Source of the DNA: Phallusia mammillata
Taxonomy: Eukaryota
DNA: 64,000 nt
NCBI GenBank assembly: GCA_965637545.1
Contig: OZ281494.1
Span: 3,410,001 to 3,474,000, forward strand
Reading direction: 5' to 3'
Position 1 is the first letter of the stretch. Each line of letters starts with the position of its first letter. Shown piece by piece: positions 24,001-27,000 of the stretch. Made by a program: the position numbers.

Positions 24001-27000
24001 CACGAAACGGAAATATTCTGCGACGCCCTTGGAAAATAGAAACGACGCACCAGGGCGTCGCAACGCACAGTTTGAGAACCACTGCAATAGACAATTACTT
24101 TCAAATGTTGGTTAAATATAGTTTAAAAGACTTTCATTTTCTAGAATTGGAATTTCTGGATAGATTTGTACTTTCGGAACCAAACAGTGTGGATGCTTTA
24201 GAGGAAATTGAAGAACAACTGGCAGAAGTTGCAATATATTTTGCAACAAAGGACGAATCAGTTTCTGACGTTAGAAATTCTCATCTGCACCAAGTGTTAA
24301 AAATCAACCAAACTGAATATAACAAACACCTCAAACTGGGGTCGTCGCACATAAGCATCTCATTCCAGACACTTAACGTAAAAAAAATTGTAACTTCCGT
24401 TCTCACCTTTCAAACAAATCGAACCGAAACAGTACAGACTCAACCCAACATACAAGGGTCCCTTACTCAAACGCAATACATAGCTGCTGTAAATAGCACT
24501 TATATTGCTGTGGTTGGTTGGGATGCTGATAGACTTTCGAGTTCAAACAGTCGCACGGTAGAAAACAATCAGCTACCCGGAAATGTGAGTTTCGTCATAC
24601 CTCCTATGTCACCAGAAAGGGTCTGTATGCTGATTAGGGAGGAAAAAATCAACAATGCGAACATGAATATCAAGAAACTGGGGCCAATATGTCTCTACTT
24701 CGATAGAGTTGAAAGAAAATACTCGGATCGTGGTTGCGTCACAATCACTGATGACGTAACAGGCAACGTCACTTGCAAGTGCAACCATCTCACTATTTTC
24801 ACCGTTCTTTTGGCGTTGGAATCAGTCACCATACCTGATGGTGTAAAGGTGAAGACATTGTTGTAGAAGTGATGTTTAAAACTATTAACTAGCAGTAGTT
24901 TGCATTGGATCTTTCCTCTGGTAAAGTGCAGTAAAGTGCAACGTGACCGTACGACGTGTTTTATTTACTTTGCTTTTCTCTTTTATTTGATGCCAAGTTT
25001 TTGATACTTGGTATGTCATTATACTTTTTCCTTCCTACACAGAAATGAGGTTAACTTTTGTTGAATGATGTAACATATCACTTAGTCAGATCTATATCAA
25101 AACATTTGTGACCATCTGATATATATACTTGTTTGAATGGGTAGGGCGTGTTTTTAAAAGTTATACTGGTTAACATAAAGCATAATGTGCTGTATAGTTT
25201 AGTACAAATAGTGAAGCAATGTTTTTGCCTCAAACACAGTTCCATAAATGAGTCATACATATACTTAACACATGCCTTCATATTTCCCTATTTTCTATTA
25301 AATTCAATCATCTTTTGTCTAACAAGTGCATATATTTAACGATGAAATTAATATTTTGTTTTCAGTATTTATCCTATGCCACAGAGACGATCTCGGTGTT
25401 CTCTCTTTTTGCGACAATCGCAATCCTCTACAGATACAGGCGAGGTGAAGACAGATTCCCGGTTCAAATCAATCTGTCAGTTTCACTTATGCTTCTCCAT
25501 TCGGTGAACTTGATGCACGATCTTGTAGTGATGCATGAAACATCATGTGTCACTTTTGCTTTAGCCAACCACTGGCTCCTGTTGTGTGTAGGTGAGTTAC
25601 TGTCGAACATAATAGAATACTCACGACTAAAAGTAGAAGTTTTACAATTTAAACACCGATTGTAAACGTTTTAGAGTGTTACAAACGGCGCTTGTTCTGT
25701 TTAAGTGGCGTATATCTACACAGTTACAGCTCCCTTTATCCAATTTGGAATTATCACAGGATTTCAATATTCTCTGTAAAGTCTGTCTTTAATGCTTAAC
25801 GATCTATTGGCAAAGTCAGAAATGAGTACAAACGATATCGTATTAACAGTAAGCTTAATCATAACTTGTTTGTTGCAGGAATGTGGTTCCTTGTTGAAGG
25901 ACTCCGCCTCCTAATGGCAACCTCCTTTCCGTACATTTTTGGAGCTCAAGATCCAGAAACACGTCTTAAGATCTTTATGCTGATTGGTTGGATTGTTCCC
26001 GCTTTTGTAGTTGGCTTATCAGCGGGTGTGGGTTTTTCCCTCGGCGCCTACATGAAGCCCCAACCGTTGCACGAGCAATGTAACGAATTTATGCCGGTTC
26101 CAAAGTACGACAGATGCTGGTTGGCTCCCGGTACCCCGATCTTCTACTCCACGGTCGTCGCTCCTCTTGCTCTCGTCCTCTTTACCAACTTCATAATCAT
26201 CCTGAAGACGACTCATGTGATTCATAACCTGAGGAGGTTGCCCAACAGAGAAGAGGAAGACAATAAAGGAGCTGCAAAATCCGTGCTTGTTTTCTTTGTC
26301 ATGCTTGGAGGGACTTGGATTTTAGCTTTCTTCACAGGTGGGTTTACATCAAGCCTAATAGCCACACGCTTGAGTTAAATTGACTGTTTCGCTTGGTCAA
26401 AGAATATATAGCAACACAGTTACATTCAAAGAACCAAGAGTTCGGAAATAACAGCGAAACGTTAAAATGTTATGAACGCTGCAGCTACACCGTATTATAA
26501 GCGTTATGTGACTGGTGCATACAAAAAAGTGATGTCAAAAAACACGACTGGGGAGACGTTGGTGGAACCAGTTTAGAGGGCCCTAAAACTAACCAACCGA
26601 GTAATGCTAAGAGGGTTGGGCTCGAAACTTACTAATAGCTTAGCGGCCTAATTTTGTGTGTGCTTTCTTTACTGGTTATTTATTGATGCTTTTAAACTCC
26701 ATAATTTCCATGTTTAATATCGTCGCAATAAGTTTTAAGTTTTTAATGCTAGGAGACACATGTGCTTTATCAATAAATCTCTCTTGCAGGAATCGGGAGC
26801 GAGATTTCGAACGAGGTGTTCATGTACATCCATGCCTTGGTGAACGGATTGCAAGGAATCGTCGTCTTCCTGCTGTATTAAATATAAAGTCTACCACAGC
26901 TTTAAACTTGCATCAATAACCCTATAACCATGTTTGCCGTACCATAATGTAGCTGGGATATTCAAAACAGCGCTTGAGAAATTGCATTGTCTGTGTGGCT

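What the first reader, a model, noticed from the sequence alone, without database searches (positions are those of the whole stretch)
26790..26881. Tail-less adhesion GPCRs: A2 and A3 stop immediately after TM7
Seen: A2 ends CTG CTG TAT TAA and A3 ends CTG TTA TAC TAA (44155-44166). The stop is the same, at the position of the Cys codon in LLYC of A1 and B, and the neighbouring differences are synonymous. There is no helix 8 and no tail. Paralogues therefore have no tail (A2, A3), a short tail of about 36 aa (B) or a long repeat tail (A1). Known: a tail-less GPCR precedent is the mammalian type I GnRH receptor, which resists rapid desensitisation. Inference: the stop is old and was tolerated or selected, giving non-desensitising or decoy receptors paired with B.
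Basis: partly seen in the sequence, partly recalled or inferred. Interest (0 to 1): 0.65.

Follow-up and report, generated by a model that had tools for sequence, protein, structure and literature searches.

The report
Tail-less adhesion receptor copies, both damaged
Two neighbouring copies of an adhesion-type receptor gene share one old stop codon that removes the whole intracellular tail; the gene seems to have been kept by selection long afterwards, but each copy here also carries its own deletion, so they look like recently decayed genes rather than proven working decoys.

Summary
The window holds five tandem adhesion-GPCR paralogues on the + strand, in the order A1, A2, B1, A3, B2. A2 and A3 end in TAA exactly where A1 and B have the Cys codon of LLYC, which is the end of TM7. 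No helix 8 or tail follows, and no tail exon lies elsewhere in the window.

The stop is one inherited event. The A2-B1 block was duplicated to give A3-B2, and the 3' flanks of A2 and A3 are homologous from the stop onward.

After the A2/A3 split the TM3-TM7 exons stayed under purifying selection:
- The TM7 exon has 8 synonymous and 1 non-synonymous difference.
- Exons e3 and e4 together have 20 synonymous and 12 non-synonymous differences (P = 2e-6).
- There is one in-frame indel where about 12 are expected at the intron rate.

So the stop was probably not the first pseudogenising hit.

Neither tail-less copy is intact, however. A3 lost the GPS motif and TM1-TM3a through a deletion of about 1.2 kb. 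A2 lost the start codon and signal peptide of the predicted first exon through a deletion of about 0.23 kb. Exon e3 also shows signs of gene conversion.

The "non-desensitising or decoy receptor paired with B" idea is untested. [quoted passage not shown] Interest is modest.

The parts
26790..26881 (+). A2 last exon (e4): TM7 ending in LLY, then TAA at 26879-26881.
   Evidence: AG acceptor at 26788-26789. Phase 1, as in the other four copies.
44075..44166 (+). A3 last exon (e4): TM7 ending in LLY, then TAA at 44164-44166.
26882..27072 (+). A2 3' flank. Homologous to the A3 flank at 44167-44346 and unrelated to the A1 and B tails.
   Evidence: No AATAAA or ATTAAA within 720 nt.
25879..26337 (+). 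A2 exon e3 (second half of TM3 to TM6).
   Evidence: Pfam 7tm_2, E = 1.3e-15, profile positions 93-223 of 250. Open frame, AG/GT sites.
25366..25591 (+). A2 exon e2 (TM1, TM2, first half of TM3). Very diverged from all other copies.
24145..24848 (+). A2 exon e1: extracellular region with GPS motif (CKCNHLT|IF).
   Evidence: Pfam GPS, E = 3.4e-9. Atlas look-alikes are GPS/GAIN-B clusters.
21329..21362 (+). A2 remnant of the predicted first exon. The ATG and first 25 codons are deleted. The donor is kept. There is no in-frame ATG upstream.
40438..40546 (+). A3 predicted first exon (signal-peptide-like, phase-1 GTAAGC donor), intact.
42599..42996 (+). A3 exon e1, 5' part only. The frame then runs into a stop at 43045-43047.
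42997..43008 (+). A3 deletion junction. 12 nt stand in for A2 24543-25753 (about 1.2 kb holding the GPS motif, intron 1, e2 and most of intron 2).
43134..43589 (+). A3 exon e3 (TM3b-TM6), open, with canonical splice sites.
13210..13318 (+). A1 predicted first exon (signal-peptide-like).
15371..17498 (+). A1 exons e1-e4: 15371-16077, 16140-16365, 16434-16901, 17026-17498. Cys codon at 17115-17117. 127-aa tail.
28529..35741 (+). B1: first exon 28529-28604, e1 29964-30640, e2 31030-31255, e3 31437-31919, e4 35542-35741 (36-aa tail).
46144..49859 (+). B2: first exon 46144-46219, e1 47453-48129, e2 48438-48663, e3 48845-49327, e4 49660-49859.

Best explanation
A single truncation in the ancestor of A2 and A3 put a TAA at the Cys codon that closes TM7, removing helix 8 and the tail. 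How it arose is unresolved: either two point changes, TGC to TAA, or replacement of the 3' end. The truncated gene was then copied together with its B neighbour.

The 7TM core, TM7 above all, went on evolving under purifying selection in the truncated state. The helix-8-less receptor was therefore most likely a working gene for a long time (inferred). It would have been a GPS-bearing ectodomain on a folded 7TM bundle with no arrestin/GRK docking tail and probably altered or lost G-protein coupling.

In this assembly both copies have since taken a second, independent hit. A3 lost the GPS motif and TM1-TM3a. A2 lost the start codon and signal peptide. A3 is certainly a pseudogene now and A2 probably is.
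For: Shown:
- Shared TAA and homologous 3' flanks, and the A-B block duplication.
- A1 and B tails are homologous to each other, 75-77% over 81 nt with E about 1e-10 to 1e-11. A tail is therefore the ancestral state.
- A2 versus A3 in e4: 8 synonymous and 1 non-synonymous difference, P = 3.8e-5. In e3 and e4 together: 20 and 12, P = 2e-6. Omega is robust over NG86, LWL85 and ML, plus YN00 for e3.
- In e4, 8 of 9 differences within full codons are at third positions.
- Intron 3 shows 10 indel events in 439 aligned nt. That rate predicts 12.4 events in the 543 coding nt of e3 and e4. One 3-nt indel is seen, P = 6e-5.
- Parsimony places 14 synonymous and 6 non-synonymous changes on the A3 branch, P = 1e-5.
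- Lesions: the A3 deletion and the A2 first-exon deletion.
- The first-exon model is supported by an ATG, a hydrophobic stretch and a GTAAG donor in phase 1, matching the phase-1 acceptor of e1 in A1, A3, B1 and B2.
Against: - The first exon is a prediction without transcript data. A2 could use another promoter or first exon.
- The A2 branch alone has 4 synonymous and 5 non-synonymous changes, which is not distinguishable from neutrality (P = 0.13).
- Synonymous divergence in e3 (0.10-0.12) is far below intron divergence (0.42). A2 25757 to about 25940 is 100% identical to A3. Gene conversion has therefore acted on e3 and can mimic constraint.
- The clean signal rests on the 29 codons of e4.
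- Exon e1 shows no clear constraint in any A copy.
- Paralogues outside the window could not be examined.
Confidence: 0.5

Rival explanations
1. A2 is still a working tail-less adhesion GPCR. Either the first-exon model is wrong or A2 uses another 5' exon or promoter. Only A3 is dead.
For: - A2 exons e1-e4 are all open, with canonical AG/GT sites and conserved phases.
- The GPS motif HLT|IF, the TM3 and ECL2 cysteines and the TM6 and TM7 motifs are kept.
- Long-term omega is below 1.
Against: - The ATG and 25 codons of the only signal-peptide-like exon conserved in A1 and A3 are deleted in A2, and no in-frame ATG lies upstream.
- A scan of 20653-24145 found no other signal-peptide-like ATG exon. 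The single candidate is not signal-peptide-like.
- There is no canonical poly(A) hexamer within 720 nt after the stop.
- A2-branch changes are 5 non-synonymous to 4 synonymous.
Confidence: 0.22
2. The stop was the first pseudogenising hit. The low omega is an artefact of gene conversion from functional paralogues, plus small numbers.
For: - Gene conversion is evident: a 183-nt tract of 100% identity, e3 dS well below intron K, and a mosaic of identities across the locus.
- Both copies are broken today.
Against: - Exon e4 shows high synonymous divergence (dS 0.4-0.6) with only one conservative E/D replacement, and it is flanked by diverged sequence. It was therefore not recently converted.
- The six A3-branch synonymous changes in e4 are absent from A1, B1 and B2.
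- No frame-breaking indel in 543 nt, against about 12 expected.
Confidence: 0.2
3. The stop is bypassed. Transcripts use a donor inside e4 and splice to a downstream tail exon.
For: GT dinucleotides exist inside e4, including one at the CTG|TA codons just before the stop.
Against: - Those sites (GCT|GTATTA in A2, TCT|GTTATA in A3) match the 17 real donors of the array poorly.
- tblastn with the A1 and B tail peptides finds only the A1, B1 and B2 tails at E of 7e-8 or better. The next hits have E of 0.12 or worse.
Confidence: 0.03

Closest known systems
Adhesion (class B2) GPCRs with GPS motif and 7tm_2 core. The closest solved chains for TM7/helix 8 are ADGRL3 and ADGRE5.
   Same: - GPS motif in e1 (E = 1e-9) and 7tm_2 in e3 (E = 1e-15 to 2e-19).
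- The TM7 motif NG(S/L)QG...LLYC aligns to NSLQG...FHC of ADGRL3.
- A Stachel-like T-x-F-x-x-L-L follows HL|T.
   Different: - A2 and A3 stop at the Cys that ends TM7, so helix 8 is missing. A 2026 review counts helix 8 as part of the conserved 7TMD (PMC13197933, passages).
- The ectodomain is short, about 235 aa in one exon, with no Pfam adhesion domain other than GPS.
Mammalian type I GnRH receptor (naturally tail-less rhodopsin-class GPCR).
   Same: The protein ends at the cytoplasmic end of TM7. The receptor lacks a C-tail and shows no homologous desensitisation (PMC8741216, start of abstract in the listing).
   Different: - It belongs to a different GPCR class.
- GnRHR is an intact, expressed, essential gene.
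- Taillessness goes with inefficient plasma-membrane expression (PMC2900216, start of abstract in the listing).
- Nothing about desensitisation can be tested here.
Engineered LPHN2 (ADGRL2) C-tail deletion.
   Same: An adhesion GPCR without its cytoplasmic tail that is still expressed at the surface.
   Different: - It is a laboratory construct.
- G12/13 activation and arrestin-3 binding were both abolished (PMC12236479, preprint, passages).
- I did not see where the truncation starts relative to helix 8.
Decaying duplicates in tandem receptor arrays, for example the human ADGRE4 pseudogene.
   Same: A lineage-specific tandem array containing copies with disabling deletions (ADGRE4: PMC8584163, passages).
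   Different: Here the shared truncation precedes a long period of purifying selection, so it did not itself mark gene death.

Membership tests
Adhesion GPCR (class B2) | GPS motif next to the 7TM domain | tested here: met
   Pfam PF01825 in e1 of A2 (E = 3.4e-9), A1 (1.1e-9) and B1 (1.3e-8). A3 has lost it through deletion.
Adhesion GPCR (class B2) | GAIN domain fold around the GPS motif | tested here: inconclusive
   The AlphaFold2 model of A2 e1 from a 4-row alignment has mean pLDDT 38.8 and is unusable. Atlas feature look-alikes are GPS/GAIN-B clusters, score 0.95 with 180 of 256 features shared. That is a lead only.
Adhesion GPCR (class B2) | Secretin-type 7TM core (7tm_2) | tested here: met
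   PF00002 in e3 of A2, A1 and B1, profile positions 93-223 of 250. Exons e2 and e4 are too short to score alone but align among the paralogues and to ADGRL3 TM7. The exons were not joined for a whole-protein test.
Adhesion GPCR (class B2) | Cytoplasmic helix 8 after TM7 | tested here: not met
   A2 and A3 end at LLY. A1, B1 and B2 carry CVM..IRQE..CKREAD, which aligns to ADGRL3 CVLQKKVRKEYGKC. No such exon lies elsewhere in the window.
Adhesion GPCR (class B2) | Signal peptide or start exon for the extracellular N-terminus | tested here: not met
   This row applies to A2, where the ATG and 25 codons are deleted. The feature is met by prediction in A1, A3, B1 and B2. No transcript evidence is available.
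Naturally tail-less, non-desensitising GPCR (GnRHR type I-like) | Protein ends at the cytoplasmic end of TM7 | tested here: met
Naturally tail-less, non-desensitising GPCR (GnRHR type I-like) | Intact expressed gene | tested here: not met
   A3 lacks the GPS motif and e2. A2 lacks the predicted start exon. Expression is not testable with these tools.
Naturally tail-less, non-desensitising GPCR (GnRHR type I-like) | Signals but resists arrestin-dependent desensitisation | not testable with these tools
   Needs cell assays. The LPHN2 tail-deletion data argue that G-protein activation may be lost as well (PMC12236479).
Pseudogene whose first lesion was the stop | Neutral evolution (omega near 1, frame-breaking indels) since the stop | tested here: not met
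   Omega is 0.02-0.03 in e4 and 0.26-0.36 in e3. One in-frame indel against 12.4 expected. Caveat: gene conversion has acted on e3.

The most novel reading that the evidence does not exclude
This species has, or had until recently, a natural adhesion GPCR lineage lacking helix 8 and the tail that was maintained by purifying selection. It would be a class B2 receptor that cannot dock GRKs or arrestin and may not couple to G proteins in the usual way. It could work as an adhesion-only (trans) or modulatory partner next to a tailed paralogue. Intact members might survive as A2 with another 5' exon, or as copies outside this window.
Probability: 0.3. Interest if true: 0.55.

Novelty: new variant of a known kind. 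Interest (0 to 1): 0.3.

Why it matters
Helix 8 is treated as part of the conserved 7TM domain of adhesion GPCRs, and the tail carries the arrestin and scaffold contacts. A truncation at the end of TM7 that selection tolerated for a long time would be a natural experiment. It would show what an adhesion GPCR can still do without either element: 7TM-dependent signalling, or ectodomain-only function. As it stands the case is weaker. Both copies in this window are damaged and nothing is known about expression, so the finding is mainly a well-documented example of stepwise decay in a lineage-specific receptor array.

Tried and rejected
- **Remnant of the tail after the stop.** I made local and left-anchored alignments of the first 120 nt after LLY of A2 and A3 against A1, B1 and B2, each compared with 1000 shuffles (12 tests). 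The best was A3 versus B1, anchored, reached by 27 of 1000 shuffles. The other eleven were reached by 64 to 928 of 1000. The positive controls, A1 versus B1 and A2 versus A3, were reached by 0 of 1000. Sensitive blastn gave no hit either. Point mutation versus replacement of the 3' end therefore stays open. Introns of A1 and A2 are not alignable either, so loss of similarity is expected under both.
- **Hidden tail exon.** None found.
- **Donors inside e4.** All poor.
- **Structure of A2 e1.** pLDDT 38.8, so no fold search was run.
- **tRNA-like element in intron 3.** ARAGORN found no tRNA anywhere in the window.
- **Branch test on e1.** Uninformative, because all three A copies change mostly at non-synonymous sites.
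- **Class B1 review (PMC10166269).** The helix 8 passages were only in reference titles.
- **Literature searches.** The terms 'adhesion GPCR' + 'helix 8' + 'tail-less' and 'adhesion GPCR' + 'transcript variants' + '7TM' + 'intracellular C terminus' listed no paper on a natural tail-less adhesion GPCR. The term 'tail-less' had 0 occurrences in all 15 papers listed. This is not proof of absence.
- **Not used.** The genome-contig collection holds bacteria and archaea only and has no bearing on this question.
- Whether intact A2-type genes exist elsewhere stayed unchecked.

Full report
**Scope and limits**

All searches and folds were done exon by exon. dN/dS was computed per exon and only the counts were summed. 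The window has no N.

It carries an array of small-intron, lineage-specific receptor genes, a LINE with an open 1063-aa frame and three vault-RNA genes. I did not try to identify the organism.

Nothing outside this window could be examined for further copies.

**What is there**

A self-comparison, the open frames and a check of every splice junction show five paralogous genes on the + strand, in the order A1, A2, B1, A3, B2. Each has the same four recognisable exons with conserved phases and canonical AG/GT sites:

| Exon | Content |
|---|---|
| e1 | Extracellular region ending in a GPS motif |
| e2 | TM1, TM2 and the first half of TM3 |
| e3 | Second half of TM3 to TM6 |
| e4 | TM7 plus tail |

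Pfam finds GPS in e1 (E = 1e-8 to 1e-9). It finds 7tm_2 in e3 (E = 1e-15 to 2e-19, profile positions 93-223 of 250) for A2, A1 and B1. These are adhesion-type (class B2) GPCR genes.

The block A2-B1 plus its downstream sequence (about 21329-38617) is duplicated as A3-B2 (about 40016-53750). Identity between the two blocks ranges from 66% to 97% by segment.

**The observation**

- Position 26790 is the first base of A2 e4, and TAA is at 26879-26881.
- A3 has TAA at 44164-44166.
- In A1 (17115-17117), B1 and B2 the same codon is TGC, within LLYC.
- The two codons before the stop differ between A2 and A3 only synonymously.
- Further in-frame stops follow immediately.
- In the alignment of the B e4 exon to solved ADGRL3 chains, LLYC matches FIFHC, and the following CVMSHMIRQEIVPC matches CVLQKKVRKEYGKC. 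From recalled knowledge of those structures, this is the TM7 end and helix 8. A 2026 review counts helix 8 as part of the conserved 7TMD (PMC13197933, passages).
- A2 and A3 therefore end at the cytoplasmic end of TM7. B has 36 aa more. A1 has 127 aa more, including 11.6 copies of a 24-nt repeat.

**One event or two, and how old**

The first 81 nt of the A1 tail are homologous to the B tails (75-77%, E about 1e-10 to 1e-11), so a tail is the ancestral state.

The A2 and A3 3' flanks are homologous to each other from the stop codon onward. They show no significant similarity to the A1 or B tails or flanks. Across 12 shuffle tests, the best result was reached by 27 of 1000 shuffles.

The stop is therefore one event inherited by both copies. 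It predates their split. Since then intron 3 has diverged by K = 0.42 and the 3' flank by K = 0.25.

Whether the event was two substitutions in TGC or a replacement of the 3' end cannot be decided. Non-coding sequence of A1 and A2 is unalignable anyway.

No tail-like exon lies elsewhere in the window. tblastn with the tail peptides finds only A1, B1 and B2. The GT sites inside e4 are poor donors compared with the 17 real ones.

**Selection after the stop (A2 versus A3)**

| Segment | Identity | Synonymous: non-synonymous | Omega | P versus neutral |
|---|---|---|---|---|
| e3 | 95.0% | 12 : 11 | 0.26-0.36 | 2.4e-3 |
| Intron 3 | 67.7% | n/a | n/a | n/a |
| e4 | 88.8% | 8 : 1 (E/D) | 0.02-0.03 | 3.8e-5 |
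| 3' flank | 78.9% | n/a | n/a | n/a |
| e3 + e4 | n/a | 20 : 12 | n/a | 2e-6 |

- The tenth e4 difference is the silent third base of the split Gly codon.
- Eight of the nine differences within full e4 codons are at third positions.
- Intron 3 has 10 indel events in 439 aligned nt. At that rate 12.4 events are expected in the 543 coding nt. One 3-nt in-frame indel is seen (P = 6e-5).
- With A1, B1 and B2 as outgroups, the A3 branch carries 14 synonymous and 6 non-synonymous changes (P = 1e-5). The A2 branch carries 4 and 5 (P = 0.13).
- For comparison, B1 versus B2 gives omega 0.33-0.44 in e3.

This argues that the truncated gene stayed functional long after the stop arose.

**Results against that reading**

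- Synonymous divergence in e3 (0.10-0.12) is far below the intron value.
- A2 25757 to about 25940 is 100% identical to A3, including 122 of 122 intron positions. Gene conversion has therefore acted on e3 and can mimic constraint.
- The clean signal rests on the 29 codons of e4.
- In the 5' 132 codons of e1, all three A copies change mostly at non-synonymous sites: A1 15:3, A2 4:1, A3 15:8 (non-synonymous to synonymous). That exon says nothing either way.
- The A2 branch alone is compatible with neutrality.

**Are the tail-less copies otherwise intact? No.**

*A3.* A2 24543-25753 (about 1.2 kb) is represented by 12 nt in A3. This removes the C-terminal part of e1 with the GPS motif, intron 1, e2 and most of intron 2. 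The e1 frame then runs into a stop at 43045-43047.

*A2.* Exons e1-e4 are open and well formed. However, I predict a first exon for this gene family. It consists of an ATG, a hydrophobic signal-peptide-like stretch and a GTAAG donor in phase 1, which fits the phase-1 acceptor of e1. It lies at these positions:

| Copy | Predicted first exon |
|---|---|
| A1 | 13210-13318 |
| A3 | 40438-40546 (one difference from A1) |
| B1 | 28529-28604 |
| B2 | 46144-46219 |

In A2 a deletion of about 0.23 kb removes the sequence upstream of this exon, its ATG and its first 25 codons. Only 34 nt (21329-21362) and the donor remain. No in-frame ATG lies upstream before a stop. A scan of 20653-24145 gave no other signal-peptide-like start.

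This exon model has no transcript support. Within that limit, both tail-less copies carry a second, independent lesion.

**Most likely history**

1. Shown: one old truncation at the TM7 end, inherited by both copies.
2. Inferred from the substitution pattern: a long period in which the helix-8-less receptor was kept by selection, with 7TM constraint like that of its tailed paralogues.
3. Shown for A3, predicted for A2: later separate deletions. The 100% identity tract abutting the A3 junction suggests that the A3 event is very recent.

**What such a protein would do is inference**

The mammalian receptor lacks a C-tail and shows no homologous desensitisation (PMC8741216). It also reaches the plasma membrane inefficiently (PMC2900216). 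For both papers I saw only the start of the abstract in the listing.
- For an adhesion GPCR, a preprint on LPHN2 reports that the tail deletion was expressed at the surface but abolished both G12/13 activation and arrestin-3 binding (PMC12236479, passages). I did not see where that truncation starts.
- GPCRs lacking helix 8 were reported not to be mechanosensitive (PMC6923424, abstract).
- Adhesion GPCRs can act through the N-terminus alone (10.1101/2023.02.18.529090, start of abstract in the listing).

An adhesion-only or modulatory role is therefore at least as plausible as a non-desensitising signalling receptor. On the other hand, the strong constraint on TM7 suggests that the 7TM bundle itself mattered.

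'Paired with B' rests only on co-duplication.

**Verdict**

- Observation: confirmed.
- Interpretation: partly supported. The stop is old and was tolerated or selected. The copies present are damaged, and the proposed function is untested.
- Novelty: a new variant of a known kind.
- Interest: modest.

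Noticed in passing
window 38187-38294, 52007-52113, 53253-53361 (all minus strand): Three vault RNA genes (Rfam RF00006, 49-51 bits against a gathering score of 34). They lie downstream of B1 and B2 inside the duplicated block.
   Followed up: no
window 32122-35313 (minus strand): A LINE with an uninterrupted 1063-aa frame carrying endonuclease and reverse-transcriptase domains. It is inserted in intron 3 of B1. B2 lacks it.
   Followed up: partly
window 27613-27895 (+ strand): An orphan fragment about 740 nt downstream of the A2 stop. 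It resembles A1 e2 (residues 12-75, 83% aa identity, open), intron 2 and the first bases of e3. It is closer to A1 than A2's own e2 is. I detected no counterpart between A3 and B2.
   Followed up: partly
window 25757-25940 versus 43012-43195: A tract of 100% identity between A2 and A3. It starts at the A3 deletion junction and spans intron sequence and the start of e3. The next intron is only 68% identical. This looks like a very recent gene-conversion or repair event.
   Followed up: partly
window 25366-25591: A2 exon e2 is far more diverged from every other copy (pS 0.76-0.80, 52-58% aa identity) than A2 e1 is from A1 e1 (89% nt identity). The A genes are mosaics with different histories per exon.
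   Followed up: partly
window 15373-15770, 24147-24545, 42601-42996: The N-terminal 132 codons of e1 change mostly at non-synonymous sites in all three A copies, including the apparently intact A1 (15 non-synonymous to 3 synonymous). This fits a fast-evolving or diversifying ectodomain.
   Followed up: partly
window 17214-17491: The A1 cytoplasmic tail is built from 11.6 copies of a 24-nt (8-aa, GESSNAE-like) tandem repeat.
   Followed up: no
window 23356-24084: About 730 nt are present in A2 just upstream of the e1 acceptor and have no counterpart in A1. This is probably an insertion in the first intron.
   Followed up: no
window 59200-59493 and 60505-60960 (+ strand); 2901-3290 (minus strand): Flanking genes. 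One is an SRF-type MADS-box gene whose DNA-binding domain is split by an intron (Pfam SRF-TF positions 1-23 and 23-48). The other is an exon of a glutamate-cysteine ligase gene (Pfam GCS, E = 1e-33).
   Followed up: no
window 9588-10032, 17574-18098, 56083-56607: A dispersed repeat of about 0.5 kb (79-94% identity). One copy lies directly after the A1 stop.
   Followed up: no
window 19142-20686 (minus strand): Three open frames of 109-159 aa whose translations look retroelement-like by eye. They gave no Pfam hit at E of 0.001 or better.
   Followed up: no
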